This document shows positions 1-33,097 of a DNA stretch of 64,000 nucleotides, in pieces. The notes beneath the pieces are model-generated. The model ran no database searches. It worked only from the letters and a program-made list of their open reading frames with translations, and was not told where the DNA came from. Position numbers and translations under genes: made by a program. This DNA comes from Opitutales bacterium (GTDB lineage: Bacteria; Verrucomicrobiota; Verrucomicrobiia; Opitutales; Seribacteraceae): contig JAQXBH010000093.1 in the NCBI GenBank assembly GCA_029252505.1, forward strand, positions 526 to 64,525, given 5' to 3'. The first letter of the stretch is position 1, and every line of letters starts with the position of its first letter.

Positions 1-3000
1 TAAGGTCCAGGATCGCTTGGATTTTGCCCCCAAAGTATATCTGCTTCCATCTCTTGGCCATCAGATAACATGACCTTAGCCTTTTGGAATGAAGGAGGAA
101 CTTCACCACCACTAGAAGAACCGAAAAAATATCTCCCAGGTTCAATAATTTTCAATCCAACGACTTCGCCTTCAGAATCAACAATAGCCTCCGCTTTTGC
201 ATCTATCCCCGAACTGCCTGCTGGTTGAATTCCAACAGTAGGACGATTTGAATTTTCGACCTTAAATTTAAAAACATGATTGAGTGGCTTTTCGACTTGC
301 AACCAAACATCGTTCGCAACTAATTGACCACTGATTGTAGGTACATTCACATCACTTGGAGTAACAAGTGGAAGATCGCCAGAAAGACTCGGGATATTCA
401 GGTAGTTATTAAAATTATTTTTTTGGCACTGAAAATACTTTCCTTCATGATAAACAATTTGGCCATAATCGTAAGAAAGGTTAGGAGTCCAATCGTCTCC
501 TTGCTGAGCAGAGCGTGGACCGCTAAGCGTTGTTGAACTACCGACTTTACTAAAATATGCACCCTCTTGAAGTGAATAATCAGGCAAGGTTTGAGATGTC
601 CAATTCGATGCAAAATTAGCGACAGTATTATCAGCAGGAGAAATATCAGTGGCAGTAGTATAATATTTACCATCTTTGTAAGCGTGATCACCTGCGCTAA
701 ATGCAAAACCTTCCTTCCATGTTGTTGCCTCAGTCCAGTTGGTCCCAAAATTTCCCAAAGTATTACTCTCAGCTGTAATTGAGGAATTAGCAAAATAAAG
801 TAATCCGTTCGCAGTCGACATTTCACCAGAAGAAACTGGTACACCAGTTACCCAGGATGCGGGCTTGGTTATATCTTGCTTCGCAATATAAAAATCGTTG
901 TTATCTGGATCGTAAATGTAGTCACCAGACTTTGCCTCAAGCTGTCTAGTAGCCGAATAAATAGGTTCCTTACCTTCAGTAGGTAAAGTATCGCCTAATA
1001 AGAAAACATTCCCATCAGAGCGCTCAGTCAATCCGACAACATTTAATGAAGTACCGCTAAAGTGAGTAGCTTGTATATTTGCATCTGTTAAGGAAAATGA
1101 AAAATCTGACTTAACTGCAAAGTATTTGTTGTTTGCGGAGTCATGAACATACTGACCTTTCTTGAGCTTTACCTGCTCAGGACCGTACCCTACATCAAGT
1201 AAACCGGAAGGTAAAAATACGGAAACCGGATTGGTTGTCGTGCTAACATCTTTGAAGTACTTGTTATTCGCGGGGTTGGCAATCGAGGCGTCTTTAGTTG
1301 CTTCATTTTCAACTGTTGTGGATACATTCAACGCAGATGTACCGAAATTCAAACTTGCTAGTTGCGAGGCGCTAGGAGGATTCGGGGGAGTACCTAATTC
1401 TAGCCAATTGGTAGCAAAGTTGGACTCAGTATTGTTAACAGAAGAAGCGTTGTTAATGGCTTCGTATAATTTACCTTGGTAAGTTGTGGTATCACCTTGG
1501 GAAACCGCTTCACCAGTTTTCCATTCGCCAAGGTGCTTTGATTTTATTTCGTAATAAATACCTTTTGCGTTTGCATCTACTCCATCCCAAACCACATCTC
1601 CCACAGCATACTCTTTTTTAGGGTCAAAAGTACCCCTCATAGAATCAGATGCAACCATAACAGAAGTTCCTTCAGGCGAAATGAAATTACCAGCGAGAAA
1701 CGGAGAGGAATTAAACTTCTCAAGGCTGGCAGGATCCTTTGGCATTGTTGTTGCCGTTGCGGTAGCCTGAGAAAGTACTGAGTTAATGTCTGCAGCTGTT
1801 AAGGAAATTTTCTCATTAGCCAAGTAATATTTATTATTAGTATCATCATGAAGATACTGACCTGCATTAATATCAAAACTTGTTGCCGAAGAAAGTTTTA
1901 GCACCGGTCCGTTGTATGTATGAACATTTCCCTGCGGAGGGAAGCTTTCAACTATATGCTCTAAGTTGGAAGGGTCGACCTGGGTGGAGTCTTGGACCAA
2001 GAAATACCTTCCTTCATGCAAAATTACATCATTGTTTTGAAATTTACCCGTAGATGAAAAGACTTGGCCATTTTCTTTTACAAAACTTCCCTTGATTACA
2101 GAACCACCTTCGGCGGCAGCAACAAGTTTGTATTCTAAAGTTTCTGGATCAAAAAATACCGCTGAATCACTTTCAGATGAATTAATTGAAAATTCGTTTA
2201 CAGGAACTGCAATTCGTTTAACAACATTAGCTAAATCTGTGGCAAGAGCAGCACCTGGGTTGCTAGATTGCTGATATTCTTGAATCTTGCTGGCCACAAG
2301 AATCGATTGCGCATGTGCATTGGCACTTGTAACATCAGCAAATAACTTTCCATCGGGAGTTGAGTAATAAAAGCGATTAGTAGTTCCTGTAACCTCCAAG
2401 TTCCAGTCTTCTCTTGGAACATCGTAACCCGAACCAATTTCCGTCCAATAATCAGTTCCACTGTTTACAGGGGAATGATTTACATTATCCGAACCAATTG
2501 ACTCGAAAAATCTTCCTTCATGTTCAACAATATCTCCCTGTTTGTAAATCGTCAAACGCCTCCAATTCTCCGTGTGCTCGACAGCCAAATTTGATGCGCC
2601 ACTAACTTGGGCAGAAGTAACCGTTAGGTCCCTACTCCAATCACTTCCTTTTACGGAAGAATCAACAATTGCTTTTTCTGACTGAGTAAGTTCCGAATAT
2701 TTGACACCAGGAAACCTAGACGCAGTTTCTATGTTTAACTTTTCTTCCAGTTGCTCAGGGAAATAGTAATTGGGATTCCATTTCGTGGTGTAAGAAGAAG
2801 ATGCTTGATAAGATTCTCCAACACTTCCATGGATGAGTAAATTGCCGTTTGCTGCAATTTCAGCATTAAGAGAAGCTTTTGTGTTTCTGAAAGAATCTGA
2901 AGTTGTTGAACCTCTCACGAATGCCTTATACTCTGAGGTTTCATAGGAAAGAGAATCCGAAACTAACTCAGAATCGTTGTTAATCAGATCTTTCAATCGC

Positions 3001-3614
3001 AGGGCAATGTTGTCGGTGCTTAGGCCTTTGATTTTAGATTGAACCACATACTCTCGACCGTTTAACGAAAAATTGACCACTTCACCCTGATCGATTCTTC
3101 TTTTTCCGTCGTTACCAAGAGTGCCCACTTCATTAAAGGTAAAGGTCTTCTGTTCGCGTTTACCAAGCAATATTTCGGAGTTACCATAATCAGGTTTTAA
3201 CTTGGTTCCTCCAAAAAGTGCCTGTTTTCGATGTGTCGAGTTGACTCGATTAAGTGCTTCCTCGATTAACTGATTGAGCTCAAAACCATAGGTTTCCATT
3301 GCTGGGCCATTAAGACTCGAACCGGCAGTTCTGGCAATTTCTTGACCCCGTTGATTGAGTTCACGCAGTTTATCTAAATTTAGATAACCCGCATCCAAAT
3401 ATTCCTTAGCGTAGGAAGCATTCCTTTGGTATTGGGTTAATTGACCCTTTTGAGTCTCCATTTGGATGACACGACCTAAACGCATCCCGTCGTCTTCTGG
3501 TAAAGTCAGTTTTTGCCCACTTGTGATTTGTGCATCAAGCTTAAATCTTTGTTGATCAAGTTCTTTTATCTTTTGGATAATCGAATTACTTGAACTTATA
3601 TTGGGCAACCTCAT
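1..3614 (-). CDS. flgL: Giant flagellar hook-associated protein 3 (FlgL) with CBM5/12-like repeats; 3' end lies outside the window (>1204 aa)
   Basis: Not in the ORF track because there is no stop in the window. Hand translation from ATG 3614 gives MRLPNISSSNSIIQKIKELDQQRFKLDAQITSGQKLTLPEDDGMR...NSTHRKQALFGGTK (flagellin/FlgL N-domain motifs Q-x-x-SG-x-K-x3-P-x-DD and LFGG). The frame is open in every segment checked down to position 1. It starts 3 bp after the flgK stop. Confidence 0.88.
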   Translation of the reverse strand, partial: MRLPNISSSNSIIQKIKELDQQRFKLDAQITSGQKLTLPEDDGMRLGRVIQMETQKGQLTQYQRNASYAKEYLDAGYLNLDKLRELNQRGQEIARTAGSSLNGPAMETYGFELNQLIEEALNRVNSTHRKQALFGGTKLKPDYGNSEILLGKREQKTFTFNEVGTLGNDGKRRIDQGEVVNFSLNGREYVVQSKIKGLSTDNIALRLKDLINNDSELVSDSLSYETSEYKAFVRGSTTSDSFRNTKASLNAEIAANGNLLIHGSVGESYQASSSYTTKWNPNYYFPEQLEEKLNIETASRFPGVKYSELTQSEKAIVDSSVKGSDWSRDLTVTSAQVSGASNLAVEHTENWRRLTIYKQGDIVEHEGRFFESIGSDNVNHSPVNSGTDYWTEIGSGYDVPREDWNLEVTGTTNRFYYSTPDGKLFADVTSANAHAQSILVASKIQEYQQSSNPGAALATDLANVVKRIAVPVNEFSINSSESDSAVFFDPETLEYKLVAAAEGGSVIKGSFVKENGQVFSSTGKFQNNDVILHEGRYFLVQDSTQVDPSNLEHIVESFPPQGNVHTYNGPVLKLSSATSFDINAGQYLHDDTNNKYYLANEKISLTAADINSVLSQATATATTMPKDPASLEKFNSSPFLAGNFISPEGTSVMVASDSMRGTFDPKKEYAVGDVVWDGVDANAKGIYYEIKSKHLGEWKTGEAVSQGDTTTYQGKLYEAINNASSVNNTESNFATNWLELGTPPNPPSASQLASLNFGTSALNVSTTVENEATKDASIANPANNKYFKDVSTTTNPVSVFLPSGLLDVGYGPEQVKLKKGQYVHDSANNKYFAVKSDFSFSLTDANIQATHFSGTSLNVVGLTERSDGNVFLLGDTLPTEGKEPIYSATRQLEAKSGDYIYDPDNNDFYIAKQDITKPASWVTGVPVSSGEMSTANGLLYFANSSITAESNTLGNFGTNWTEATTWKEGFAFSAGDHAYKDGKYYTTATDISPADNTVANFASNWTSQTLPDYSLQEGAYFSKVGSSTTLSGPRSAQQGDDWTPNLSYDYGQIVYHEGKYFQCQKNNFNNYLNIPSLSGDLPLVTPSDVNVPTISGQLVANDVWLQVEKPLNHVFKFKVENSNRPTVGIQPAGSSGIDAKAEAIVDSEGEVVGLKIIEPGRYFFGSSSGGEVPPSFQKAKVMLSDGQEMEADILWGQNPSDPGP
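600..719 (-). repeat. 40-aa CBM5/12-like repeat in FlgL (WKEGFAFSAGDHAYKDGKYYTTATDISPADNTVANFASNW)
   Basis: Hand translation; same W-to-W spacing and NT-x-x-NF-x-x-NW ending as the copies at 735-854 and 1404-1523. Confidence 0.75.
735..854 (-). repeat. 40-aa CBM5/12-like repeat in FlgL (WVTGVPVSSGEMSTANGLLYFANSSITAESNTLGNFGTNW)
   Basis: Hand translation; tandem with the copy at 600-719. Confidence 0.7.
1404..1523 (-). repeat. 40-aa CBM5/12-like repeat in FlgL (WKTGEAVSQGDTTTYQGKLYEAINNASSVNNTESNFATNW)
   Basis: Hand translation; W-x8-GD-x3-Y-x-G-x-x-Y-x-A pattern. Confidence 0.75.
2445..2564 (-). repeat. 40-aa CBM5/12-like repeat in FlgL (WRRLTIYKQGDIVEHEGRFFESIGSDNVNHSPVNSGTDYW)
   Basis: Best match to the ChtBD3/CBM5/12 consensus W-x5-Y-x2-GD-x-V-x-(Y/H)-x-G-x2-(Y/F)...N...P...W. 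Confidence 0.78.
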
Positions 3615-3617
3615 AAA

Positions 3618-6600
3618 TTATTTTAAAAGACCCATTACAACAAGTTCGAGCATTTTGTCGAGCGTATTTAACACTCTAGAAGAGGCCTGGAACGACCGTT
3701 GAAATTGCATAAGGTCAGCAACTTCTTCATCAATTGATACTGAGCTAACTGAATTTCTTTGTTCTAGCAATAATGTTTCAATCGTATTTTGATGATCTAT
3801 ATTATCACTCAAGTCGGAAAGCGAATTGCCTATATCCGCGTTGATATCAGATATATCTTTTGCAAATTCGTTATTACCTAGCTCTGCAATAGCAAGCGCA
3901 ATTTCATTGGAACCCTGATCAAAATCCGCACTCGCAACAATGCTGTCAGCACTGAGATTATTATCAACAATGAGGGAGCTAGCCAAATTCCAACTATTTT
4001 CAAGAACTGTATCGAAAGAAAAATTATCTCCCAATAAAAACTCACTATCACCCTGCTCTAACCTAAAGGGCACATTTTCATAAGCAAGCATAACGGAACG
4101 TCCATCATCAGCGGTACCAATTAGTAAATCTGCACCCGCATAGGTGGAATCAGTTTCCATGGTAACATTTTGCATCTTCTTAGCACTTCCATAAAATGTG
4201 TAAAGCGATCCTGAACTTGAATCCTCTAACTGGATCTGCCCTTCGGTAGTGTCGCGAATAATATATCCAGTCCCTTCGAATTGTTCTCTTAATTCAACTG
4301 GAATCACTGGAGTCGTACTCGTTACAGTAAATGTGTCGTTTTCAGCGTAAGCAAGTGTCATTGAAACTTCATTCCTAAACAACTTCATCTCTCCGTTACC
4401 CTCAACTCCATATAAACCAAACTCTTCCTCCATAATCACATTTCGACCCATGGTAGGTCGGGTCAAATTTGCTTCAAAGCCAAACAGATATTCTCCTGGA
4501 GCGTCCTGAGGGTTATAGATTCCGTTCACTTGTGTTACAAATTTAGAAACCAAATCATTGAGAGAAACTCTGAAATCTTCCAGCTCAACCTGACGGGAGT
4601 GTTGATACCCGTGTAAGGAACCAGATTTTAAATCAATCTCCAATCCATTAACAAATAAGGCATCAGTCGAGGGCAAGTCTTTGGATTGTTGAAGAATGTG
4701 AAAACTCTTAATTTCTCCATCTTGAATAATGGCTTCGGCGACTCCGATATTGAGTTCCTGTAATGAACCATTGGAGATATTTAATCCGCCTGGGTTTGCT
4801 TTTCGTAGGACAGAAGTAACCGGAAGTCCAGAATCAGCATCAGGAGTAAAAATATGAAAATTATTTTTCCAATTAGCGTCGTTGGGATTAAATGTATTAA
4901 TTTCTGCATCACCAACGATGGGGTTTGGTTTTGCTTTGACCAAAAAATGAGTACTAGATGTCTCATCATAATAAATTCCACCCGAGTTAAAATTCATTTG
5001 AAGCTCGGTAGCCTCAACTCCATTTGTAACAATAGTTACATTTTCTGGCAAAGACTGAACAGTGGATATAGTATCATCAACAAAGGAGTTTACCTTGATA
5101 AAGTTAGCGGAGGAATGTGGTAGCTCAGTTGTTGCCGCTGATACATTTGAAACTGCCATATAAAAATCTCCACCCGTACCAGAAGGTGCATTCGGATCTA
5201 TAAATGAAATAACCGAACCTGCTGTAAGGTCGTTTCCATCAGGCCATGACATATTTAATTCTTCAGATTTCTTGGGTAGCGTTGCCCCAAGAGTGACGAT
5301 TCCAGATTGATCAACAGTACCCGCAGTAGTTACTAAGGAAGAAATCTCAGTAGCTCTGGGAATCGTTTTCGTTGCTTGGTAGTAATTATTCTCAAAGAGA
5401 AAAACTTCACCATTAGAATAGTTCCTTGAACTGAGAGTAGCGTTAGTCAAAGGATCGACGACACCAACTTCATTCGATACTGGACCAACCCCGGTAGTTG
5501 CTTGATAGACTTTGCCCTCGTAATAAATCTGTTTACCCTTAGGGATAAAATCAACATCGGAAAAAGTTCTCTTGGTCTCAATTACAATCCCATTGGGTGG
5601 ATTTGAAATAGCCAAAAACCTCGATTCGTCTGTTAGCAAATCTCCCTTTTGTGTATCGACTAAAGCTTGATAGTAACTCTCCCCTTCATAAAAAACTTCT
5701 CCAATCTTTCGAGCAGCAGAAGAAGGATCAACTGGTATAGTACTCGCAATATCGCCCCCCGCCTGAGCGGCAATCTCATTGCCCGCGTCAACTGCTTGGT
5801 TTGCCATTTGAATAGCTGCGACCTGTTCATTTGCTGCGGCATTTTCCTCCTGATTAACCAGATCTGCTTTTTCTTGTACAACAAGAGGTTCGTTTGGCTT
5901 CGGAGGCAACAGACTCACTAAGAAAGGACCATCAGAATCGTTGTACTTAGAACCGCCCTTTAGAACTTCAAGTCTGCCTAACTGTCCATTGGAATCAATT
6001 TTGGCACGGACAACCGCTGCTGTACCGGCAGCATCCTGAGGACCCGCAATTGTAAACTCCTGCCCCCATTGATTAGTAAGAGACTTTGAACCTTTAGAAT
6101 CTAAAATATTAATCTTTTCATCATTTTTTCCTTCGATGAAAAGGTTTACAAAACCAGAGGGTTTACCAGTAGTCGCGGAAACATCATCTTCTTGAGTAAA
6201 ATTAATGTAACTTCCCAATTCCTCAAATAACTTTTGTCTTTGGTCCCGGTAGGAAACTGCTTTTCCTTGATCAAGGAGCTCAAAACGCCGAACTTGGGTA
6301 TTTGCTTCGTGGATTTGACCTAATAAAATATTAATTTTTTCAGTTGATCTTGTAATCACTTCTGAAACATCCTCTTCAATCTGCTCAAGGCTTTGCCCAG
6401 CCTCATTAAAGCGCTTGGTTAAGGTTTCAATCTTATGATAAAGTTCTTGTTTGATAGTCGGTTCATAAGGAGAAGCCGAAAGTTCCTGGAAGGTGTTAAA
6501 AAAATCGTTTAACGCACGGGTTAAACTACCGGGGGCTAAATCGCTGTCATGCAAATCATCCAGTCCAACATTAACTCCTTGACGATTAATTTTCTCTCCC

Positions 6601-6902
6601 AATGCAGCCTGTAACAATTGCAAAATTTCCTGCTGTGCAGCCAATGATTCGGAGTCCCCTTTTTCGTTAATAACCCGGGCATCTAAGATTTGATTCCTGG
6701 CATGATCGACTCCACCAGTCTCTAATCCGGATGAAAGCAGACCCCCAAACGAAGTATGCATGACTCCTTCTCGAGCCAAGACCCTTTGTCGTGCATAATT
6801 TTCGTCATTAACATGAGCTAAATTTTGACCCGCTACTTCTGCTGTTCTTGCATGATAGCGAAGAGCTTCCGAGCTTTTGCTTATTTCTCCAAGTAATCCC
6901 AC
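3618..6902 (-). CDS. flgK: Enlarged flagellar hook-associated protein 1 (FlgK), 1094 aa
   Basis: N-terminal GQNLAHVNDENYARQRV and C-terminal SVSSVSIDEEVADLMQFQRSFQASSRVLNTLDKML are FlgK motifs; lies between flgN and flgL. Confidence 0.93.
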   Translation of the reverse strand: MGLLGEISKSSEALRYHARTAEVAGQNLAHVNDENYARQRVLAREGVMHTSFGGLLSSGLETGGVDHARNQILDARVINEKGDSESLAAQQEILQLLQAALGEKINRQGVNVGLDDLHDSDLAPGSLTRALNDFFNTFQELSASPYEPTIKQELYHKIETLTKRFNEAGQSLEQIEEDVSEVITRSTEKINILLGQIHEANTQVRRFELLDQGKAVSYRDQRQKLFEELGSYINFTQEDDVSATTGKPSGFVNLFIEGKNDEKINILDSKGSKSLTNQWGQEFTIAGPQDAAGTAAVVRAKIDSNGQLGRLEVLKGGSKYNDSDGPFLVSLLPPKPNEPLVVQEKADLVNQEENAAANEQVAAIQMANQAVDAGNEIAAQAGGDIASTIPVDPSSAARKIGEVFYEGESYYQALVDTQKGDLLTDESRFLAISNPPNGIVIETKRTFSDVDFIPKGKQIYYEGKVYQATTGVGPVSNEVGVVDPLTNATLSSRNYSNGEVFLFENNYYQATKTIPRATEISSLVTTAGTVDQSGIVTLGATLPKKSEELNMSWPDGNDLTAGSVISFIDPNAPSGTGGDFYMAVSNVSAATTELPHSSANFIKVNSFVDDTISTVQSLPENVTIVTNGVEATELQMNFNSGGIYYDETSSTHFLVKAKPNPIVGDAEINTFNPNDANWKNNFHIFTPDADSGLPVTSVLRKANPGGLNISNGSLQELNIGVAEAIIQDGEIKSFHILQQSKDLPSTDALFVNGLEIDLKSGSLHGYQHSRQVELEDFRVSLNDLVSKFVTQVNGIYNPQDAPGEYLFGFEANLTRPTMGRNVIMEEEFGLYGVEGNGEMKLFRNEVSMTLAYAENDTFTVTSTTPVIPVELREQFEGTGYIIRDTTEGQIQLEDSSSGSLYTFYGSAKKMQNVTMETDSTYAGADLLIGTADDGRSVMLAYENVPFRLEQGDSEFLLGDNFSFDTVLENSWNLASSLIVDNNLSADSIVASADFDQGSNEIALAIAELGNNEFAKDISDINADIGNSLSDLSDNIDHQNTIETLLLEQRNSVSSVSIDEEVADLMQFQRSFQASSRVLNTLDKMLELVVMGLLK

Positions 6903-7446: not shown

Positions 7447-7453
7447 TTCTATA

Positions 7454-7798: not shown

Positions 7799-7800
7799 GA

Positions 7801-8916: not shown

Positions 8917-8920
8917 TTGT

Positions 8921-9550: not shown

Positions 9551-9553
9551 AAA

Positions 9554-25057: not shown

Positions 25058-25082
25058 GATATTATATTGTAAAAATTAAAAT

Positions 25083-26033: not shown

Positions 26034-26039
26034 TAAAAT

Positions 26040-26711
26040 TTAGTTCGCAGGAATTCCGGTTGGGGCTAGGTCGCCCAAATCCAAACTAGGTAACAGTCCA
26101 CGGTCTCTCATTGAAAGAGCATCAGCAAGCTCGATCAAAGAATCCTCATCGCTGTTATACATAAAGGAAATAATGGGAGCTTTGTCTTCCGCTTTGAGAA
26201 GTTCAAATATCGTCAGTGCTTCTTCAAACCTACGTTTTTGTCTCCAATTTTGAATTTCAACAGTCGCAACTTCCGGTCCCATTTCAACCCACCTCTTGGA
26301 GGTATCTTTGTACTCTTTTAATTTTTCCTCACTTAAATCCTGCCCTTGTCTTGCTTCAAAATCAGCTAATCGAGCAGACAGATCATCCTGGATTTGATTC
26401 ATTTCTTTCTTCTGCTTTTCGAGTGCTTCTAAGTCCATTGCGATCGCAGATTCCCGGGAGTCGAGCTCAGTTTCTCTTTCTAGCAATTTTTCTTTCAATG
26501 CAGCCAACTCTTTGGATAGTTGGTTCATCGAATGAGTTTCCGCAGGGGAATAACTGGTATCATCGGCATCGAATTCAACACTGGTAAATTCTGCCTTGAT
26601 CTCTGGTTTAGGTTTAAACAAATCATCGTAGCTCAATACTACCATAAAACCAGCGGATCCGACTGATAGCAATACAGCTAATATAACAATAATAATGGGT
26701 GATATTTTCAT
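26040..26711 (-). CDS. MotE/FlbB/YlxF-like membrane-anchored coiled-coil flagellar protein
   Basis: N-terminal TM, long coiled coil, MgtE_N-like C-terminus (RWVEMGPEVA); position fliJ-X-fliK as for Bacillus ylxF. Confidence 0.65.
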   Translation of the reverse strand: MKISPIIIVILAVLLSVGSAGFMVVLSYDDLFKPKPEIKAEFTSVEFDADDTSYSPAETHSMNQLSKELAALKEKLLERETELDSRESAIAMDLEALEKQKKEMNQIQDDLSARLADFEARQGQDLSEEKLKEYKDTSKRWVEMGPEVATVEIQNWRQKRRFEEALTIFELLKAEDKAPIISFMYNSDEDSLIELADALSMRDRGLLPSLDLGDLAPTGIPAN

Positions 26712-26713: not shown

Positions 26714-27166
26714 TTAATAACTCGTGTTGTTGAAAACAAAACGAGCACCAATGATATCCTCAAGTTCTGTTTCCTCCTTTTTTTCTTCTGTTTTTAAATG
26801 CTCGCTTCTTTTCTTATTTTTAAGCTTCAGTAAACTCTTGCAGTTGGAATCTGCTTCCAAGTAGATTTTACGTTTAGCAGATTCTATATTTTTTGAATCC
26901 GCAAGCTTTGAATTGAAATCAATAATCTCTCCTTTTTTTCGATTAATTGATTGGTTGAAATTCTCTTGTTCATGCCCAGAAAACCCAGATGTTCTTTTAA
27001 TCACAATATCCTGGTTAAGAATTTCTAAACTTTTTACTGCATTTCTAAGTTCAACCTCAGCATTTTCACGATTTGAAATCGCGAGTGCATAATTTTTCAT
27101 TGCTTTATCTTTAGACATTTCACGAAGTTGCAAAAGAGTCTCCAAGCGAAAAGTAAATGCCTTCAT
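26714..27166 (-). CDS. fliJ: Flagellar export protein FliJ
   Basis: MKAFTFRLETLLQLRE, coiled coil; follows fliI. Confidence 0.92.
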   Translation of the reverse strand: MKAFTFRLETLLQLREMSKDKAMKNYALAISNRENAEVELRNAVKSLEILNQDIVIKRTSGFSGHEQENFNQSINRKKGEIIDFNSKLADSKNIESAKRKIYLEADSNCKSLLKLKNKKRSEHLKTEEKKEETELEDIIGARFVFNNTSY

Positions 27167-28488
27167 GAACCAAAAATTTCTGCAAGTTGTTGAAATGAGG
27201 ATTCTCGAGTCGAAACTTGATCATACCTTTGCTTAAGAAATGAATCAACCCTATCAAATTTTTCAATCGCCCGATCTATTTTAGGATTACTATTTTTGAC
27301 ATAAGCACCGACATTAATTAGGTCTTCATTTTGCTTGTAAACGGAAAGTAAATCGCGAGCCTCAGAAATAATCTGAATTTCCGACTCAGTGCATACTGCA
27401 CGATCCAAACGACTTACGCTTTGCAATACATCCACAGCAGGAAAATGATTTGCATTTGCAAGTTTACGACTAAGAACGATATGCCCATCGAGAAAACCTC
27501 TGACTGCATCTGCAACGGGTTCATTCATATCATCTCCCTCGACTAGAACAGTATAAATAGCGGTAATTGCACCCGAATCACTCGTTCCAGTTCTTTCAAG
27601 TAATTTTGGTAATAAAGAGAAAACCGAGGGTACATAGCCCCGGGATGCAGGGGGTTCTCCTGCGGCGAGGCCAATCTCGCGTTGTGCCATCGCAAAACGA
27701 GTTAAGGAATCCATTAACAGAAGAACTTTTGAACCTTCGTTACGAAATCCCTCCGCAATTGCAGTTGCTAAGATAGAAGCCCGTATTCTCATCGGCGCAG
27801 GTTGATCGGAAGTAGAAACTACAATTACAGTCTTCTTCATTCCTTCTGGCCCAAGATCTTTTTCCACAAATTCTCTTAATTCTCGACCACGCTCCCCTAC
27901 CAGAGAGATTACATTGATATCAGAATCAGAGCCTCGGGCAATCATACCAAGCAGGATGGATTTCCCGACTCCACTACCTGAAAATATTCCAACCCTTTGG
28001 CCGACACCTAATGGTATAAAAGTATCAATTGATTTAATTCCTGTACTAAAGGCTTCTGAGATCATTGAGCGACTCAATGGGTTAGGCGGTTCTGCATAGA
28101 AACCCTCTCGCCGAGGGGTAAGAAGTGGACCTTTGCCATCAATAGGCCTTCCCATTCCATCGATAATTCTACCTAGTAAAGCAGGTCCGGAAGGCACAAA
28201 ATTATTGTTACGCTGAGAAGACACCTTACAACCTGGATGAATTAGATGTACGCTATCCAAAGCCATTAAAAGGACAAAATTATCCCTAAACCCGACTACC
28301 TGTGCTTCAATTTTTTCCTTATGTCTATCCGAAACAATTGAGCAAACTTGACCGATACTTACCTCCGGGCCTTCGGATTCAATAATGAGTCCAGTTACCC
28401 GACGTACCGTTCCCACTTTATCATAAGTTCTTACTCCCTTAATTCCATTCTCCATGAAGGCGAATCTCTCATCAAGTGACTCAATCAT
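27163..28488 (-). CDS. fliI: Flagellar export ATPase FliI
   Basis: GSGVGKS, GERGRE, DSLTRFAMAQREIG, LDGHIVLSR. Confidence 0.98.
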   Translation of the reverse strand: MIESLDERFAFMENGIKGVRTYDKVGTVRRVTGLIIESEGPEVSIGQVCSIVSDRHKEKIEAQVVGFRDNFVLLMALDSVHLIHPGCKVSSQRNNNFVPSGPALLGRIIDGMGRPIDGKGPLLTPRREGFYAEPPNPLSRSMISEAFSTGIKSIDTFIPLGVGQRVGIFSGSGVGKSILLGMIARGSDSDINVISLVGERGRELREFVEKDLGPEGMKKTVIVVSTSDQPAPMRIRASILATAIAEGFRNEGSKVLLLMDSLTRFAMAQREIGLAAGEPPASRGYVPSVFSLLPKLLERTGTSDSGAITAIYTVLVEGDDMNEPVADAVRGFLDGHIVLSRKLANANHFPAVDVLQSVSRLDRAVCTESEIQIISEARDLLSVYKQNEDLINVGAYVKNSNPKIDRAIEKFDRVDSFLKQRYDQVSTRESSFQQLAEIFGS

Positions 28489-29161
28489 TTCGCTTAAGTT
28501 CTTCCTCTACCTTTCTTATTTTTGTAGAAACCCGACCATCTAGAAGTCCAAACCGACTCTTGATTTGGCAATCTCCAGACTGTAAGGAAGAATCTTCAAA
28601 AAATTTCACATTTGGGTAACCCTCAAGAAGCGCATCATCCCCATCTAATCCGTCAAAAATACCAGCAATAGCAGACGCAAAACCCTCTTCCTCTTCGTTT
28701 TTATCCTTTTCAACTGCTGGCTTTTCAGGATCGGCCATCGCCTTTAGTAAAGATAAATCTTGGGGGCAAAGATATACCTCAAGTTTCTCGTCTTCTCCTG
28801 AAAATTCAGAAACCATGCTTCGTACGATCTCTTCTATTGCATCACGGTCCAAAGTGATCTGACCCAGAACGCGTTCAGCAAGTCCGATGACTAAATCTGG
28901 AAGTCGGTGGTCCAGTTTTGCAATAACCTCGTTTGTTTTAGTATCAATATTCGCTAATAAATGAGACTGCGACTCTGCATAAGTTGTTCTTAATTTTGAG
29001 ATTTCAGCTTGGTAAAAGGCTGTTGCCTCTTCTTTACCTCGGTTATACTCATTTAATGCATTTTCATTGGATTGAGCCGCTGTAACAGAGGGTTCCCCAA
29101 CATGACTTACCTTGAAACCACTGAGTGGTTTCGGGAAATTGATGGATCTATTGTACGACAA
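28481..29161 (-). CDS. fliH: Flagellar assembly protein FliH
   Basis: EYNRGKEE, VYLCPQD, DSSLQSGDCQIKSRFGLLDG. Start moved to TTG 29161, which has a GGAGG SD and overlaps the fliG stop. Confidence 0.9.
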   Translation of the reverse strand: MSYNRSINFPKPLSGFKVSHVGEPSVTAAQSNENALNEYNRGKEEATAFYQAEISKLRTTYAESQSHLLANIDTKTNEVIAKLDHRLPDLVIGLAERVLGQITLDRDAIEEIVRSMVSEFSGEDEKLEVYLCPQDLSLLKAMADPEKPAVEKDKNEEEEGFASAIAGIFDGLDGDDALLEGYPNVKFFEDSSLQSGDCQIKSRFGLLDGRVSTKIRKVEEELKRND

Positions 29162-30191
29162 CGTCGCTTCCTCCAGTATCGAGAATAATTTCCTCGTCCT
29201 CCTCGAGTTCGCGTACAATTTGTATCACTCGGTCTTGGGCAGATTCCACTTCAGATAAGCGTTTAGGTCCAAGAAAGGTAAGTTGTTCTTCAAGTGCCTC
29301 AACTGCTCTCTTGGACATAGTCGAATAAATTATTTTCTTGAGTTCCGGTGAAGCGTTCTTGAGAGCAATTACTAAATCATCTTGGTCCACTTCCTTCGTA
29401 ATTTTACTCACATCTCCAGGGCTGAGTCGTACCAAGTCCTCGAAGCGGAACATCCTTTGTCGGATCGAACCTCCCAATTTAGGGTTTCTTTTCTCAATAC
29501 TTTTGAGTAACTCTTTCCCCTCCTCCTTATCAAACCAGTTCAGTAAATCGGCAGCGGATTTAACTCCGCCAGTTTTGACCCGTGGAGATTGTCCTTTTTT
29601 ACCCATTCTTGCTCCCAGCGTACTGGCAACAACCTCAATTTGATCAATGGGGGTAGTTTCCATAGAACCGACTCTTTCAACAACTTGCTCCTGTACATTT
29701 GGAGGCATCATTTGAAGAACCTCGGAACCTTTGTCCGCATCCACATTTGCAAGTACAAATGCAATTGTTTGGGGTTGTTCAAAGCGGAGGACATTGTAAA
29801 TTTGACCGGAATCCATCTCTTTGATGTCGTCCATGAAATCAAGTGAATCTCGAACCGGTGCAATACGATTCATCATATTGTTTGCCTTGTAGTCGCCGTG
29901 AGCAAGTTCCAAAGTTTTTTGAGCAAATGTCAAACCTCCCAGGTTTGAATTCACGCTAGATTCGATGATTTCTGAAAACTCATCTAATACGCAATCCTTG
30001 AGTTCTTGATCAACAATTGGAAAGTTTCCGATTTCTTTGCAGATCCCTTCAGAATCCTTTGAATCGAAACGCTTTAAAAGTGTTGCAGAAGCTTCAGGAC
30101 CAAGTGCGATCATAAGAAGACCTAATTTTTGATGCCTAGACATACGGGAGTACCGGTCATAAACGGAATCTTCTTCGGTTACTTCATCCAT
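29148..30191 (-). CDS. fliG: Rotor protein FliG
   Basis: EQPQTIA, GGVKSAADLLN, MFRFEDL, MSKRA. Confidence 0.97.
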   Translation of the reverse strand: MDEVTEEDSVYDRYSRMSRHQKLGLLMIALGPEASATLLKRFDSKDSEGICKEIGNFPIVDQELKDCVLDEFSEIIESSVNSNLGGLTFAQKTLELAHGDYKANNMMNRIAPVRDSLDFMDDIKEMDSGQIYNVLRFEQPQTIAFVLANVDADKGSEVLQMMPPNVQEQVVERVGSMETTPIDQIEVVASTLGARMGKKGQSPRVKTGGVKSAADLLNWFDKEEGKELLKSIEKRNPKLGGSIRQRMFRFEDLVRLSPGDVSKITKEVDQDDLVIALKNASPELKKIIYSTMSKRAVEALEEQLTFLGPKRLSEVESAQDRVIQIVRELEEDEEIILDTGGSDVVVQ

Positions 30192-30208
30192 CGGTCAAAA
30201 ATTAGCGG

Positions 30209-31777
30209 TTACGAGGAAGAACCCGTTTCTAAATACCTCCTGAGAGCAGTTCCTACATTGTCAGGTTTTTCCTGAATTAAGTCGTTGAGAAGTTCTGGAG
30301 TTAACCCACTACCTAAACTCCTTGTTCCAGCAAGTAACTGCTGGTCATCTTCGTCCAAAACCTGAACTTCAGCCTCGTTCGGTTTAAATCTCTTTAGCAT
30401 TGTGATGAAGACAATAAACAATGCAATTGCTAAGATAACACCAACTAAAGTTTTTACGTGGGGTCCATATTTATCAACGAAATTCTGAAATTGATCCAAT
30501 GTTTCGCCCCCAATACCCCCAATCGCAGGGTCTTGAAAAACAACTTCTTTGACAGATACATGAGTTAGAAGTTCGCTTTCTTCAAGGTTGAATCTCGCCC
30601 CCACGGCATTGATTACAGCCTCTCGTATAACATCAATATCCTCAGCAGTTCGTGGTGACTCCCCTTTCGCAATAAGAACCGCTACACTTCGACTGATAAT
30701 TGAACCTGGTTCTTGAACTGTCTCTTTTAGATTCCTACTAATCTCAAAATCTGTAGTCTTGGACTCGCGAGACTCATCGCTTTTAGCCATGATAGGATCC
30801 TGTTGAGTAGCATCCTGACTTACATTAGGCACATTAGCACCCATTCCTGTCGCGTTATTTTGAGGCTGTGTCTCTACAGTTGTAGCCATGTCTTTGTCAG
30901 TAGTCGAAGTTCGAGGAACTTGTCCATCAGGATCAAACTTCTCATCTAATTCCGTCATTGATTTGGTGTCTAAATTTACTGAAACTCGAGCGATTACATT
31001 TTGTCTACCGACCGTTTTGGCAAGCATAGTTTCGATCTTAGTTTCCAATCGTCGTTCCTGTGCTTCATAAGCTTTCATCATCTGACCCGCAACACCAGCG
31101 GCACCACTGGATTCTCCCTGCTCAGAAAGAAGGTTTCCTTGGTTGTCCATTACTGCCACATTCGATTTGTTGATTCCTTTGTTAGCATTGGAGACAAGAA
31201 ACTGAATTGCATTTACATTAGCTTTATCAAGTGTACTCCCTCCGGTATCGACATATACTGAAGCGCTGGGCCTATCATTCGGATCTTCGCTAAGCAAAAG
31301 GTTATTTTCAGGCTTAACAATAAAAACCTTTGCTGACTTGATTGAATCCATCATTGCAATTGTTCTCTGTAACTCTCCCTGAATTGCCCGTGTGTGATTA
31401 GTTCGTTGCACGAAATCACTAATCCCAAAATTTCCTTCATCAAAAATCTCAAACCCTACATCACCGCTTCTTGGCAAACCTTTCATGGCAAGTTCCATCC
31501 TCATCGCTGCACGTTTATCCTCAGGCACTAAAATGGTGTCTCCGCTCTCACTATATTCAAATTCGACTTGATTTGATCGCAACACATCCACCACATCGCT
31601 CAGGTCATCGGCATCAGCTCCGCTTACCAAAACGCGCATTGAAGTGCTCCCACCTGACCAGCTAAGAATCCCGACACTTAAAATTAAAATCCCGCCTAAG
31701 GCGACGACTAGGGTTAATTTTCTACTTGAATTCAAACCGTCCCAAAGTTCGGCAAGCTTACTAAATCGTTCTTTCAT
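30209..31777 (-). CDS. fliF: MS-ring protein FliF
   Basis: GFEIFDEGNFGISDF, RAIQGELQRTI, PSASV; two TM helices. Confidence 0.97.
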   Translation of the reverse strand: MKERFSKLAELWDGLNSSRKLTLVVALGGILILSVGILSWSGGSTSMRVLVSGADADDLSDVVDVLRSNQVEFEYSESGDTILVPEDKRAAMRMELAMKGLPRSGDVGFEIFDEGNFGISDFVQRTNHTRAIQGELQRTIAMMDSIKSAKVFIVKPENNLLLSEDPNDRPSASVYVDTGGSTLDKANVNAIQFLVSNANKGINKSNVAVMDNQGNLLSEQGESSGAAGVAGQMMKAYEAQERRLETKIETMLAKTVGRQNVIARVSVNLDTKSMTELDEKFDPDGQVPRTSTTDKDMATTVETQPQNNATGMGANVPNVSQDATQQDPIMAKSDESRESKTTDFEISRNLKETVQEPGSIISRSVAVLIAKGESPRTAEDIDVIREAVINAVGARFNLEESELLTHVSVKEVVFQDPAIGGIGGETLDQFQNFVDKYGPHVKTLVGVILAIALFIVFITMLKRFKPNEAEVQVLDEDDQQLLAGTRSLGSGLTPELLNDLIQEKPDNVGTALRRYLETGSSS

Positions 31778-31801
31778 ATAATTTAACTAAAGTTTTGAAG
31801 A

Positions 31802-32218
31802 CTAAACTTGCATCCTCATTAACTCTTTGTAGGACTCAACTAGTTTATTGCGCACCTCGATCATCAAATTAAATGCCACGCCCGCTTCTTGTGATTTAAC
31901 GACCGCTTCGTGGATGTTATCAGATTTCCCAAGTATAAGATCTTGAGTTTCACGAGCTGAAATTTTCTTCTTTTGATCAACTCCCTTCACAAAGCTTTCG
32001 AACATTTGAGAAAAACCGGGTGCAGTAACTCGGTCGGTGGGCGAAGTTTTATCAATTGGAACAAAATCAACCGCATTAGTTTGCTGGGCTTCTTTTGCCC
32101 CAAAGCCTTGACCTAATTCGCTCGTTTTCGCAAAACGATCGAGTTGCTTGTTCGCTTGAAGATTAGAGTTTTGTGTGAGCAAATCGCTCAGACTAGGAAG
32201 TGATGATATTTCGTTCAC
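31802..32218 (-). CDS. fliE: Hook-basal body protein FliE
   Basis: EVRNKLVESYKELMRMQV. Confidence 0.96.
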   Translation of the reverse strand: MNEISSLPSLSDLLTQNSNLQANKQLDRFAKTSELGQGFGAKEAQQTNAVDFVPIDKTSPTDRVTAPGFSQMFESFVKGVDQKKKISARETQDLILGKSDNIHEAVVKSQEAGVAFNLMIEVRNKLVESYKELMRMQV

Positions 32219-32226
32219 AATATAAA

Positions 32227-32667
32227 TTATCTACCGATAGCGAGCGCTTGCTGAGCTAATCGACGGGAAGTTTTGACTACAGTTAAATTAGCTTCGTAAG
32301 CACGAGAAGCACTTATTAAATCAATCATTTCGCGGGATACATCCACATTGGGCATTTCAACCATACCGTCTTCATTTGCATGAGGATGACCAGGGTTGAA
32401 GATCATGCGACCAGGTGTTTGGTCATCAAATACATCAGTAACCCGAACGCCTTGGTAAAGATTTTCGTCCACATAACCGGGAACTCTGCGCTCCGGAGTT
32501 TTTATAAATTCCTCAAAAGAAACTTCTTTTCTTTTGTAAACATTTCCAGATGCATCCTGAGTAGTGTTCGAGTTTGCAATGTTTTGAGCGATAATTTCAA
32601 GTCTGATCTTCTCTGCAGATAATGCACTGCCAGTAGACTCGATTCCAGGGATAAGGTTCATACTCAT
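32227..32667 (-). CDS. flgC: Rod protein FlgC
   Basis: NIANSNTT, YKRK, PGHPHANEDGMVEMPNV, ASRAYEAN. Confidence 0.97.
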   Translation of the reverse strand: MSMNLIPGIESTGSALSAEKIRLEIIAQNIANSNTTQDASGNVYKRKEVSFEEFIKTPERRVPGYVDENLYQGVRVTDVFDDQTPGRMIFNPGHPHANEDGMVEMPNVDVSREMIDLISASRAYEANLTVVKTSRRLAQQALAIGR

Positions 32668-32678
32668 AATGAAATATT

Positions 32679-33068
32679 TTAGACGCGACCCCTAATTGCT
32701 TTGTTCAGTTCCTTTATTGAACCTCCTACTGCGCCAGTAAGATACTCATAATTTAAAGCGTTACGATTCATTGCAAGCATTTCTTCGTCGATTTGTACCG
32801 TGTTACCATCCATACGGACAGGTTTCGCTTGTCGATCTTCTTCGCTTCGAGGAAGAAGTCCTTTCACCCTACGAAAATCGCTTCTGTCGACTGCCCTTCT
32901 AAGTTCCACAGAAAAAGTCTTAGGTAAGTCTCTTCTTTTAAAACCAGGCGTTTCTACATTCGCAATATTGTTAGAGAGTGCCTCGTGACGCAAATGAGTT
33001 GCATCAAGGAGTTTTTTAGAGATTAGGTAATTCTCTTGACTGTATAAGTTATCGAGTACGACTGCCAT
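32679..33068 (-). CDS. flgB: Rod protein FlgB
   Basis: NNIANVETPGFKRRD, RMDGNTV. Start moved to ATG 33068 because the longer start in the track lies inside the sigma54 promoter. Confidence 0.95.
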   Translation of the reverse strand: MAVVLDNLYSQENYLISKKLLDATHLRHEALSNNIANVETPGFKRRDLPKTFSVELRRAVDRSDFRRVKGLLPRSEEDRQAKPVRMDGNTVQIDEEMLAMNRNALNYEYLTGAVGGSIKELNKAIRGRV

Positions 33069-33069
33069 G

Positions 33070-33085
33070 TGGCACACACAATGCA
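33070..33085 (+). promoter_or_regulatory. Possible opposed sigma54 promoter facing the histidine kinase
   Basis: Plus strand TGGCAC-ACACA-ATGCA (one mismatch), overlapping the flgB promoter by 4 bp. Confidence 0.45.
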
Positions 33086-33097
33086 ATACTTGTGCCA
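33082..33097 (-). promoter_or_regulatory. sigma54 promoter of the flgB operon
   Basis: Minus strand TGGCAC-AAGTA-TTGCA, a perfect consensus match. Confidence 0.92.

What the first reader, a model, noticed from the sequence alone, without database searches (positions are those of the whole stretch)
1..33097. Candidate system: a chemotaxis-uncoupled, adhesin-decorated flagellum
Seen together in one cluster: giant repeat-bearing FlgK/FlgL, FliM without the CheY-binding peptide, no cheY/che or flhG at their usual positions, a degenerate FlhF, and MotB without peptidoglycan-binding residues. The export apparatus, rotor and ion-conducting stator residues are intact. Inference: the organelle may serve non-tactic dispersal plus capture of or tethering to polysaccharide particles, rather than classical chemotaxis.
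Basis: inference. Interest (0 to 1): 0.8.

Follow-up and report, generated by a model that had tools for sequence, protein, structure and literature searches.

The report
Chemotaxis-free flagellum with giant junction proteins
An uncultured marine Verrucomicrobia (Opitutales) bacterium has a complete flagellum gene cluster but no detectable chemotaxis system, and the two proteins that join hook to filament are two to four times normal size because of surface inserts with sugar-binding-type folds; whether these inserts stick to sugars or only strengthen the joint is not settled.

Summary
The cluster is real: 36 minus-strand genes from flgB (33098) to flgL (runs off the contig). FlgK is 1094 aa. 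FlgL is over 1380 aa here and about 1400 aa in orthologs.

- **Family-specific size.** Giant FlgK occurs only in this family. It is 417-671 aa in the other Opitutales searched.
- **Inserts.** They are not tandem repeats. They carry dispersed CBM5/12-fold modules, supported by Pfam and Foldseek, but lack the canonical chitin-binding Trp pair.
- **No chemotaxis.** CheW, MCP and CheR were not found in this 87%-complete genome, nor CheW or MCP in two congeners at least 95% complete. Congeners that have CheA carry a cyclase-output pathway instead.
- **FliM.** It lacks LSQxEIDALL but has a clade-conserved DESFD(L/I)SE peptide.
- **Not part of a syndrome.** The derived FlhF and the missing flhG also occur in a chemotactic outgroup with normal FlgK and FlgL.
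- **Beyond the window.** The genus has 12-33 flagellin-domain matches in its better assemblies, giant flagellins, and FliD up to 1950 aa.

Best reading: undirected swimming with a bulky junction collar, as in Rhodobacter sphaeroides FlgK1. Sugar binding is possible but unproven. This scan had already noted giant FlgK in another genome of this family (e1-4214143).

The parts
26714..33098 (-). flgB, flgC, fliE, fliF, fliG, fliH, fliI, fliJ (rod, MS ring, rotor, export ATPase complex)
   Evidence: Pfam matches. FliG aligns end to end with solved FliG structures.
23209..26711 (-). Conserved unknown ORF (223 aa, 26040-26711), fliK (weak), flgD, flgE (short hook protein, 283 aa), fliL
   Evidence: The 223-aa ORF is 61-99% identical in 26 related loci.
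22184..23197 (-). fliM, 337 aa, with FliM and FliMN_C domains
23141..23173 (-). FliM residues 9-19, DESFDISELQG: a clade-conserved N-terminal peptide in place of the CheY-docking LSQxEIDALL
   Evidence: DESFD is at least 90% conserved among 31 distinct relatives, against 53-62% in the flanks. Outgroups G027 and G022 have LEQGDIDALM and LSQGGIDALL.
16349..22191 (-). fliN (82 aa), fliO, fliP, fliQ, fliR, flhB, flhA (C ring and export gate)
15193..16359 (-). flhF, 388 aa: P-loop kept, G2 (DTYR) absent, DFPG and THFD in place of DTAG and TKLD
   Evidence: The motifs are conserved in 21 relatives and shared with chemotactic outgroup G027.
14873..15190 (-). 105-aa unknown ORF where flhG usually lies
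   Evidence: No Pfam family. Homologs in 34 related loci and in outgroup G027.
12334..14867 (-). fliA (sigma-28), motA, motB. MotB keeps the plug and channel Asp; its OmpA-like motif has D->N and R->Q.
   Evidence: No second MotAB set found in the genome.
6916..12296 (-). Unknown 91-aa ORF, flgF, flgG, flgA, flgH, flgI, rod-binding flgJ-like gene (114 aa), flgN
3618..6902 (-). flgK (HAP1), 1094 aa: FlgK_D1 at the N-terminus, Flg_bbr_C at the C-terminus
   Evidence: The model core matches solved FlgK structures at Foldseek E 1e-8. Orthologs are 1050-1139 aa in the genus.
4623..6197 (-). FlgK beta-rich surface insert, about residues 236-760. It is modelled best (pLDDT about 70-90) over residues 390-800. 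A second, poorly modelled stretch follows at about 800-1000.
   Evidence: Weak fold matches to the CBM12 pair of Vibrio chitin oligosaccharide deacetylase.
5595..5741 (-). FlgK CBM5/12-like hairpin module 1 (...GEVFYEGESYYQAL...)
5307..5447 (-). FlgK CBM5/12-like hairpin module 2 (...GEVFLFENNYYQAT...)
1..3614 (-). flgL (HAP3), over 1380 aa. It runs past the window start to the contig end, so about 20 C-terminal residues are missing.
   Evidence: Flagellin_N and CBM_5_12. Open frame 1380 aa. Orthologs 1394-1402 aa ending ...LLNTSLLNYL.
2445..2576 (-). FlgL CBM5/12-like module (W..Y.QGDIVEHEGRFF....P......W)
1434..1526 (-). FlgL Pfam CBM_5_12 match, residues 697-727
   Evidence: 27.8 bits against a cut-off of 26.2. 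FlgL-like representatives elsewhere score 26.6-41.5 bits.
822..962 (-). FlgL CBM5/12-like module (...GDYIYDPDNNDFYIA...)
375..503 (-). FlgL CBM5/12-like module (W....Y.YGQIVYHEGKYFQC)

Best explanation
This is the main flagellar gene cluster of an uncultured marine Opitutales bacterium. Its FlhA is 98% identical to 'Candidatus Seribacter sulfatis', and its G+C content and flagellation resemble the MB11C04 group.

**Shown**
- The cluster encodes a complete flagellum with L and P rings, driven by MotAB.
- The genome has no detectable CheA, CheW, MCP or CheR.
- FliM has replaced the CheY-docking peptide with a clade-conserved DESFD(L/I)SE(I/L) peptide.
- FlgK and FlgL are 2 to 4.5 times normal size because of family-specific surface inserts that contain CBM5/12-fold modules.
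- Related inserts occur in some flagellins and in FliD.

**Inferred**
- The motor drives undirected, non-tactic swimming.
- The 11 + 11 giant junction subunits form a bulky collar between hook and filament. As in Rhodobacter sphaeroides FlgK1, I take its main job to be mechanical: coupling the hook to a filament that is probably glycosylated and built from several flagellins, and bearing the load.
- Sugar binding by the CBM-like modules, whether to the cell's own flagellar glycans or to outside polymers, is a possible added function and is unproven.
For: - **Complete machine.**. Only one copy of each core gene was found.
- **No chemotaxis genes.**. The same holds in high-quality congeners G006 and G013. 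The inspected che locus of a congener has a cyclase output.
- **No other motor inputs found.** No PilZ domain. No CheY-like single-domain regulator next to flagellar genes.
- **FliM peptide.**
- **Giant FlgK and FlgL throughout the genus.**. They are confined to one family within the order.
- **FlgK structure.** The core matches solved FlgK, and the insert lies between the D1 helices, so it is surface-exposed.
- **CBM5/12 fold.**
- **Mechanical precedent.** R. sphaeroides FlgK1 is 1363 aa and gives a bulky HAP region visible by EM. Deletions in its insert stop swimming without changing flagellar appearance (PMC7277832).
- **Constraint on the insert.** Full-length FlgK identity across the genus is 49-89%, which points to structural constraint rather than a free hypervariable region.
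- **Expression.** Flagellar proteins of the MB11C04 genus are abundant in bloom metaproteomes (PMC8857213).
Against: - The mechanical role rests on analogy with a non-homologous insert in an alphaproteobacterium.
- CBM5/12 modules also occur in FliD at the filament tip and, weakly, in a giant flagellin. A junction-only mechanical role does not explain that.
- The middle of FlgL (residues 616-1030) varies in presence and length between species, as expected for an accessory, possibly binding, function.
- Absence of che genes is inferred from draft genomes.
- The conserved FliM peptide suggests that some unknown partner still docks on the switch.
Confidence: 0.45

Rival explanations
1. One reading: an adhesin-decorated flagellum. 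The CBM5/12-type modules on FlgK, FlgL, FliD and some flagellins bind external polysaccharide such as chitin fibrils or algal exopolymers. A non-tactic swimmer would then catch or tether to particles on contact.
For: - CBM_5_12 scores above Pfam's cut-off in FlgL (27.8 bits), in the second FlgL-like gene (43 bits) and in FlgL-like representatives elsewhere (26.6-41.5 bits).
- The FlgL insert model matches the tandem CBM12 domains of Vibrio chitin oligosaccharide deacetylase (Foldseek probability 1.0, E 5e-4) and the CBM5 of chitinase B.
- Similar modules occur in giant FliD, at the tip, which is a classical adhesin position.
- In this genome the modules were found only in flagellar axial proteins.
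- By established knowledge, the organism belongs to polysaccharide-degrading, bloom-associated Verrucomicrobia.
Against: - None of the modules keeps the Trp-Trp pair that binds chitin in canonical CBM5/12 (sequences).
- The same fold also matches phage tail fibres, where it need not bind sugar.
- The junction holds only about 22 subunits, close to the cell.
- MB11C04 cells were mostly single and not on particles (PMC8857213).
- Giant FliD is not universal in the genus (G006 has 652 aa), whereas giant FlgK and FlgL are.
Confidence: 0.3
2. The motor is still under sensory control. Either a che system was missed in the draft assembly, or an unknown regulator docks on the conserved FliM DESFD peptide, so 'chemotaxis-uncoupled' would be wrong.
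For: - The genome is only 87% complete, in 291 contigs.
- 6 of 18 congeners have CheA and CheW.
- The FliM N-terminal peptide is far better conserved than its flanks, which argues for a binding partner.
- Outgroup G028 has CheW and MCP genes but no canonical FliM peptide, so peptide loss alone does not prove uncoupling.
Against: - Three independent che families and two BLASTP checks found nothing.
- Congeners at 95-96% completeness also lack them.
- The inspected congener che locus has a hybrid CheA and a cyclase output, with no CheY, CheB or CheR.
- The FliM peptide is the same in congeners with and without that locus.
- The only complete single-domain receiver (141 aa) does not look CheY-like and lies next to cstA.
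Confidence: 0.1
3. The apparatus is not mainly a motility organelle. It would serve as a type III exporter that releases large CBM-bearing proteins (FlgK, FlgL, FliD) into the water.
For: By established knowledge from Salmonella, hook-associated proteins are exported in excess. The substrates here are unusually large and carry CBM-type folds.
Against: - All parts for rotation and a filament are kept and conserved: MotAB, FliG, L and P rings.
- Better-assembled congeners carry 12-27 flagellin-domain matches, and relatives carry flagellin glycosylation genes.
- FlgK and FlgL keep their polymerising termini.
Confidence: 0.04

Closest known systems
Rhodobacter (Cereibacter) sphaeroides Fla1 FlgK1 (HAP1), 1363 aa, with a bulky HAP region (PMC7277832)
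   Same: Both are junction proteins two to three times normal size. [quoted passage not shown] The Rhodobacter insert is required to bear motor load.
   Different: The inserts are unrelated in sequence. Here FlgL is also giant (about 1400 aa), the inserts contain CBM5/12-fold modules, and the organism has no detectable chemotaxis system. R. sphaeroides is chemotactic.
Giant flagellins of Bermanella marisrubri and Oleibacter marinus (PMC6248924), and enzymatic flagellins such as flagellinolysins (PMC7643111)
   Same: Flagellar axial proteins with very large surface-exposed central domains that thicken or functionalise the organelle. This genus also has flagellins of 828-1035 aa.
   Different: Those cases concern flagellin only. 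Here the junction proteins and the cap carry the inserts, and the fold is CBM-like rather than protease.
CBM5/CBM12 chitin-binding modules, for example the tandem CBM12 of Vibrio chitin oligosaccharide deacetylase (4NY2, 3WX7) and the CBM5 of Serratia chitinase B (1H0G)
   Same: Pfam CBM_5_12 matches above the cut-off, and Foldseek probability 1.0 over about 100 columns at 23-25% identity.
   Different: The modules are embedded in flagellar axial proteins rather than attached to an enzyme. The canonical exposed Trp pair is not conserved, and no binding has been tested.
Flagellated bacteria without chemotaxis genes, such as Aquifex aeolicus (from my own knowledge, not checked here)
   Same: A full flagellar gene set with no CheA, CheW, CheY or MCP.
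   Different: Here the loss occurs within an order whose other flagellated members keep che genes and the FliM docking peptide. It also coincides with large elaboration of the extracellular parts.

Membership tests
Bacterial flagellum (Gram-negative type) | Core set: export gate FlhAB/FliPQR, ATPase FliHIJ, MS and C rings FliFGMN, rod FlgBCFG/FliE, L and P rings FlgHI, hook FlgDE/FliK, stator MotAB | tested here: met
   All were found in one cluster with Pfam matches above the cut-offs, except for weak FliK and MotB OmpA matches.
FlgK (HAP1) | FlgK_D1 helical domain, rod-type C-terminus, a fold like solved FlgK, and a gene lying between flgN and flgL | tested here: met
   PF22638 at 87.5 bits and PF06429 at 35.2 bits. 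Foldseek E 1e-8 to 2D4Y, 9GO6 and 5XBJ. Gene order.
FlgL (HAP3) | Flagellin-type N- and C-terminal helices and a gene directly after flgK | tested here: met
   Flagellin_N at 27.3 bits. The C-terminus is cut by the contig end here, but it is present and conserved in orthologs (...LLNTSLLNYL). 26% identical to the 303-aa FlgL of outgroup G027.
CBM5/CBM12 carbohydrate-binding modules | Sequence match to PF02839 and the small beta-hairpin fold | tested here: met
   27.8 bits in FlgL, 43 bits in the second FlgL-like gene, and 26.6-41.5 bits in FlgL-like representatives. Foldseek probability 1.0 to CBM12 of 4NYU and 4NY2.
CBM5/CBM12 carbohydrate-binding modules | Exposed aromatic pair (the ...AxWW... 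Trp residues) that stacks on chitin or cellulose | tested here: not met
   The modules read ...RFFESIGS, KYFQCQKN, SYYQALVD, NYYQATKT. None has the Trp pair.
CBM5/CBM12 carbohydrate-binding modules | Measured binding to an insoluble polysaccharide | not testable with these tools
   This needs recombinant protein and binding assays.
Flagellar chemotaxis pathway | CheA and CheW (CheW-like domain) present in the genome | tested here: not met
   PF01584 gave 0 matches in the own genome at 87% completeness. BLASTP with a congener's CheA and CheW hit only receiver domains.
Flagellar chemotaxis pathway | MCP signalling domain and CheR methyltransferase | tested here: not met
   PF00015 and PF01739 gave 0 matches. 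17 of 18 congeners lack MCPsignal.
Flagellar chemotaxis pathway | FliM N-terminal CheY-docking peptide LSQxEIDALL | tested here: not met
   FliM reads DESFDISELQG. The canonical peptide is present in outgroups G027 and G022.
FlhF-FlhG placement system | FlhF with a full SRP-type GTPase motif set (G1-G4) | tested here: not met
   G1 is present and G2 (DTYR) is absent. G3 reads DFPG and G4 reads THFD. The changes are conserved across relatives and shared with outgroup G027.
FlhF-FlhG placement system | MinD-type FlhG ATPase | tested here: not met
   It is not at the flhF locus. The only two ORFs with a deviant Walker A motif in the genome look Soj-like and Mrp-like. This was a motif scan of an 87%-complete draft, not a family search.
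MotB / OmpA-like peptidoglycan anchor | The hallmark NxxLSxxRAxxV motif with its Arg, and the upstream (G)HTD Asp | tested here: not met
   SHTN ... MSLEQGAEV, conserved in 17 relatives. OmpA scores 25.9 bits against a 27.2 cut-off. Outgroup G027 keeps the Arg.
Giant flagellins (over 1000 aa, as defined in PMC6248924) | Flagellin with N- and C-terminal domains and a length over 1000 aa | tested here: inconclusive
   The own genome has flagellins of 828, 959 and 975 aa. Congeners have open frames of 994-1035 aa.

The most novel reading that the evidence does not exclude
In an abundant family of bloom-associated marine Verrucomicrobia, the flagellum may have been rebuilt as a rotating, sugar-binding capture organelle. 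Junction, cap and part of the filament would display lectin-like CBM modules. Chemotaxis has been discarded. The switch protein FliM would carry a new conserved docking peptide (DESFD...) for a motor input that is not CheY and is still unknown.
Probability: 0.2. Interest if true: 0.85.

Novelty: new variant of a known kind. Interest (0 to 1): 0.58.

Why it matters
Flagella are usually treated as chemotaxis-steered propellers with a small, invariant hook-filament joint. In this widespread group of marine polysaccharide degraders several things differ together:
- steering appears to have been dropped;
- every extracellular part beyond the hook has been elaborated: FlgK, FlgL, in some species FliD, and a few flagellins;
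- the better-assembled genomes hold 12-33 flagellin-domain matches.

If the inserts bind sugars, motility, encounter and attachment would be fused into one organelle. That bears on how carbon in algal blooms is found and consumed.

If the inserts are mechanical, this is a second, independent case after Rhodobacter showing that the junction can be a tunable load-bearing element.

Either way, the conserved non-canonical FliM peptide offers a direct way to look for new motor inputs.

Tried and rejected
- **Tandem repeats.** Tandem Repeats Finder on 1-7000 found none. BLASTP self-comparison of FlgK and FlgL found no internal repeats. The 'repeats' are therefore short dispersed modules only.
- **Weak Pfam hits on the inserts.** A relaxed scan (E up to 1) added nothing beyond CBM_5_12.
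- **ESM Atlas feature search on FlgK 390-800.** Scores were at most 0.81, which is uninformative.
- **PilZ or YcgR-type brake.** No match.
- **141-aa single-domain receiver as a CheY candidate.** Rejected: it has an LLTGH / ILNKP pattern, lies next to cstA, and has no flagellar context.
- **FlhF, flhG and MotB as markers of uncoupling.** Rejected, because chemotactic outgroup G027 shares the FlhF and flhG traits.
- **A second flagellar system.** Rejected: no paralogs of core genes except on contig C268. That contig may be a co-binned relative.
- **Complex prediction.** Not used. I do not claim a specific binding pair.
- **Separate fold searches of single insert domains.** The FlgK and FlgL insert models have only moderate confidence (mean pLDDT 64-65).

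Full report
**What is in the window**

All large ORFs from 33098 down to base 1 lie on the minus strand. Pfam assigns them in this order:
- flgB, flgC, fliE, fliF, fliG, fliH, fliI, fliJ
- an unknown 223-aa ORF, then fliK (weak), flgD, a short flgE (283 aa), fliL
- fliM, fliN (82 aa), fliO, fliP, fliQ, fliR, flhB, flhA, flhF
- an unknown 105-aa ORF, then fliA, motA, motB
- an unknown 91-aa ORF, then flgF, flgG, flgA, flgH, flgI, a 114-aa rod-binding flgJ-like gene, flgN
- flgK (1094 aa) and flgL

The window is bases 526-64525 of the longest contig of a 3.1-Mb draft. That draft has 291 contigs, 42% G+C, 87% completeness and 3% contamination. flgL runs to the contig end: its open frame is 1380 aa. 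Orthologs are 1394-1402 aa, so only about 20 residues are missing.

**Organism**

FlhA finds 42 loci, all in marine MAGs and single-cell genomes labelled Opitutales, Opitutia, Puniceicoccaceae or Verrucomicrobiota. The closest, at 98% identity, is 'Candidatus Seribacter sulfatis'.

G+C content and flagellation fit the MB11C04 group described by Orellana et al. That paper reports three things about the group (PMC8857213):
- all members encode flagella;
- flagellar proteins are abundant in late-bloom metaproteomes;
- cells are large, single and not attached to particles.

I did not verify that this genome belongs to MB11C04.

**Chemotaxis**

In the own genome I found none of the following:
- a CheW-like domain, which also rules out CheA;
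- an MCP signalling domain;
- CheR;
- a PilZ domain.

BLASTP with a congener's CheA, CheW, dCache protein and REC-cyclase hit only receiver and cyclase domains. An outgroup's MCP and CheW found nothing.

Among 18 congeners, 12 lack CheW, including G006 (96% complete) and G013 (95%). Seventeen lack MCPsignal.

Six congeners have CheW, all with the same hit pattern at one locus. I inspected the G008 locus. It encodes:
- a hybrid CheA with two CheW domains and a receiver;
- CheW;
- a dCache protein;
- a REC-REC-adenylate/guanylate cyclase.

No CheY, CheB or CheR lies on that contig. This is a chemosensory pathway with a second-messenger output, not a flagellar one.

Ten receiver domains exist in the own genome. 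The only complete single-domain one (141 aa) lies next to cstA and does not look CheY-like.

**FliM**

The canonical docking peptide is absent. Two flagellated, che-positive outgroups of the same order keep it: LEQGDIDALM in G027 and LSQGGIDALL in G022.

In its place all 31 distinct relatives carry (D/E)ESFD(L/I/V)(S/D)E(I/L). The DESFD residues are at least 90% conserved. The preceding residues are 53% conserved and the following linker 62%.

The peptide is the same in congeners with and without the CheA locus. It is therefore under selection, and an unknown partner is a real possibility.

A third che-positive outgroup, G028, also lacks the canonical peptide. Peptide loss alone is therefore weak evidence for uncoupling.

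**FlhF, flhG and MotB**

The FlhF motif changes are real and nearly invariant in 21 relatives.

The chemotactic outgroup G027 has the same gene order, including:
- the same small ORF in place of flhG;
- a similarly derived FlhF (EEPNPDD, DLPG, SHLD);
- a MotB without the HTD Asp.

G027 also has a FlgK of 519 aa, a FlgL of 303 aa, and FliW, an MCP and CheW just downstream.

These traits are thus shared with at least one distant family of the order and are not linked to loss of chemotaxis. The MotB Arg-to-Gln change is conserved in the 17 relatives aligned, and G027 keeps the Arg.

A motif scan found only a Soj-like and an Mrp-like deviant Walker A ORF in the genome. No second stator set was found.

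**The giant junction proteins**

FlgK orthologs are 1050-1139 aa, and FlgL open frames are 1080-1502 aa. Each was found in 34-35 of 41 genus genomes, and in all 12 of the high-quality ones.

Across 121 genomes from 79 genera of the order, the FlgK open frame is 417-671 aa everywhere except in this family, where it is 1084-1729 aa. One outgroup copy is split into two frames.

A search of 5.8 billion proteins found 175 clusters of giant FlgK. Every cluster that carries a taxon name is labelled Opitutae, Puniceicoccaceae or Verrucomicrobia. One subtype of 1576-1811 aa carries CBM_5_12 in some members.

The FlgL insert has only 72 relatives at E <= 0.001 among 1.84 billion representatives. The four long ones I scanned are FlgL-like, with Flagellin_N plus CBM_5_12 at 26.6-41.5 bits.

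The FlgK model has a mean pLDDT of 64, with the insert at about 70-90 over residues 390-800. Its core matches solved FlgK at E 1e-8. A beta-rich insert sits between the D1 helices, which is the outward-facing position.

The FlgL insert model (mean pLDDT 65) best matches:
- the tandem CBM12 domains of Vibrio chitin oligosaccharide deacetylase (probability 1.0, E 5e-4, 23-25% identity);
- tail fibres of flagellotropic Agrobacterium phages;
- the CBM5 of chitinase B.

Short CBM5/12-like hairpin modules recur far above chance in FlgK (2), FlgL (3-4), the giant FliDs and the C268 paralogs. A profile built from them hits no non-flagellar ORF in the genome at a significant level. That profile matches its own seed sequences by construction.

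None of the modules keeps the Trp pair that binds chitin in canonical CBM5/12.

- The genome has 33 Flagellin_N matches, including flgL and a second flgL-like gene. Three are flagellins of 828-975 aa.
- Congeners have up to 27 matches, with 21 in a 40-contig, 96%-complete genome. Open frames reach 994-1035 aa.
- Part of the FlgL insert is homologous to giant-flagellin inserts: 27% identity within the genome (E 6e-15) and 40-42% in relatives.
- There are four FliD genes: 1923 aa, over 1559 aa, and two of 761 aa that are 91% identical to each other. Congeners have one FliD each, of 652 to 1951 aa.
- Contig C268 carries a second flgI (84% identical), flgJ, flgN, flgK (1729 aa) and flgL (over 1236 aa).

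No other congener shows two FlgK copies, and the 1700-aa type exists as a separate lineage. C268 and the doubled fliD may therefore come from a co-binned relative. The count of 33 should be read with that caveat.

Downstream of flgL in relatives lie FliW and a gene set for nonulosonic-acid synthesis plus a Maf-type protein. This indicates glycosylated flagellins. No che genes lie there.

**Interpretation**

The 'chemotaxis-uncoupled' part of the reading is well supported.

For the inserts, two readings remain.

*For sugar binding:*
- the CBM5/12 sequence and fold;
- their presence on cap and filament proteins as well as on the junction;
- their restriction to flagellar proteins in this genome.

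*Against sugar binding, or for a mechanical role:*
- the missing aromatic pair;
- only about 22 junction subunits (11 FlgK and 11 FlgL, established knowledge; see PMC12221982);
- unattached cells in situ;
- the R. sphaeroides precedent, where a 1363-aa FlgK1 gives a bulky HAP region and insert deletions stop swimming without changing flagellar appearance (PMC7277832);
- universal enlargement of FlgK and FlgL but not of FliD;
- fairly strong conservation of the FlgK insert.

I rank a mechanical or structural collar first (0.45) and external adhesion second (0.30).

**Novelty**

Giant FlgK, giant flagellins, adhesive FliD and che-less flagellates are each known. I found no paper describing any of the following:
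- a giant FlgL;
- CBM-type modules in junction proteins;
- this combination in marine Verrucomicrobia.

An earlier follow-up in this scan reached a similar conclusion for FlgK in another genome of the family (e1-4214143).

Noticed in passing
own genome, contigs C242, C124, C164, C147, C135, C88, C115, C67 and others (loci L001-L008, L069-L071): The flagellin family is greatly expanded. This draft has 33 Flagellin_N matches, counting flgL and a second flgL-like gene. Well-assembled congeners have 21-27, many in tandem arrays. Giant flagellins reach 828-1035 aa.
   Followed up: partly
own genome, C159:2843-8611 (L072), C47:834-5510 (L073), C138 (L074), C147:2078-4360 (L075): There are four FliD cap genes: 1923 aa, over 1559 aa, and two of 761 aa that are 91% identical. 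Congeners have one FliD each, ranging from 652 to 1951 aa. The giant ones carry the same hairpin modules as FlgK and FlgL.
   Followed up: partly
own genome, contig C268 (L068 = 6517-10224): A second set of flgI (84% identical), flgJ, flgN, flgK (1729 aa) and flgL (over 1236 aa, CBM_5_12 at 43 bits). It is either a true paralogous junction set or a contig from a co-binned related population. No congener shows two FlgK copies.
   Followed up: partly
L058 (G008:C132:1-7588); the same hit pattern occurs in G004, G012, G014, G017, G018: Six of 18 congeners have CheW matches at one locus. In G008 the locus encodes a hybrid CheA (two CheW domains plus a receiver), CheW, a dCache protein without a detectable MCP signalling domain, and a REC-REC-adenylate/guanylate cyclase. 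This looks like a chemosensory pathway with a cyclic-nucleotide output.
   Followed up: partly
L120 (G034:C1:9000-23400), downstream of flgL in a congener: FliW and DUF1015 are followed by PseG-like, aminotransferase, Maf-type (MptE-like), PseB-like and NeuB genes. This is a nonulosonic-acid flagellin glycosylation set, placed where outgroup G027 has an MCP and CheW.
   Followed up: partly
window 40142-49999 (-): A 3285-aa surface protein with Big_9, FG-GAP, He_PIG, cadherin-like and bacterial Ig-like domains. It is a conventional giant adhesin candidate, 7 kb from the flagellar cluster.
   Followed up: no
window 26040-26711, 14873-15190, 12021-12296 (all -): Three ORFs without any Pfam family (223, 105 and 91 aa) are embedded in the flagellar cluster and conserved in 26-34 related loci. 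The 105-aa ORF occupies the flhG position and also has a homolog in outgroup G027.
   Followed up: no
window 33283-34863 (+): A histidine kinase with HATPase_c and a weak PAS match (526 aa) is transcribed divergently from flgB. It is a candidate FlgS/FleS-type regulator of the cluster.
   Followed up: no
protein P0174 (3775 aa): This non-flagellar giant protein has thermolysin (M4) and subtilase (S8) domains. It carries 12 stretches similar to positions 461-508 of the FlgL insert query, which correspond to FlgL residues about 641-688. At least one insert module therefore also occurs on a secreted protease.
   Followed up: no
L079 (G028:C6:205734-209642): Outgroup G028 has CheW, MCP and flagellin genes, but its FliM N-terminus has no LSQxEIDALL-like peptide. 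The docking peptide is therefore variable within Opitutales even where che genes exist.
   Followed up: no
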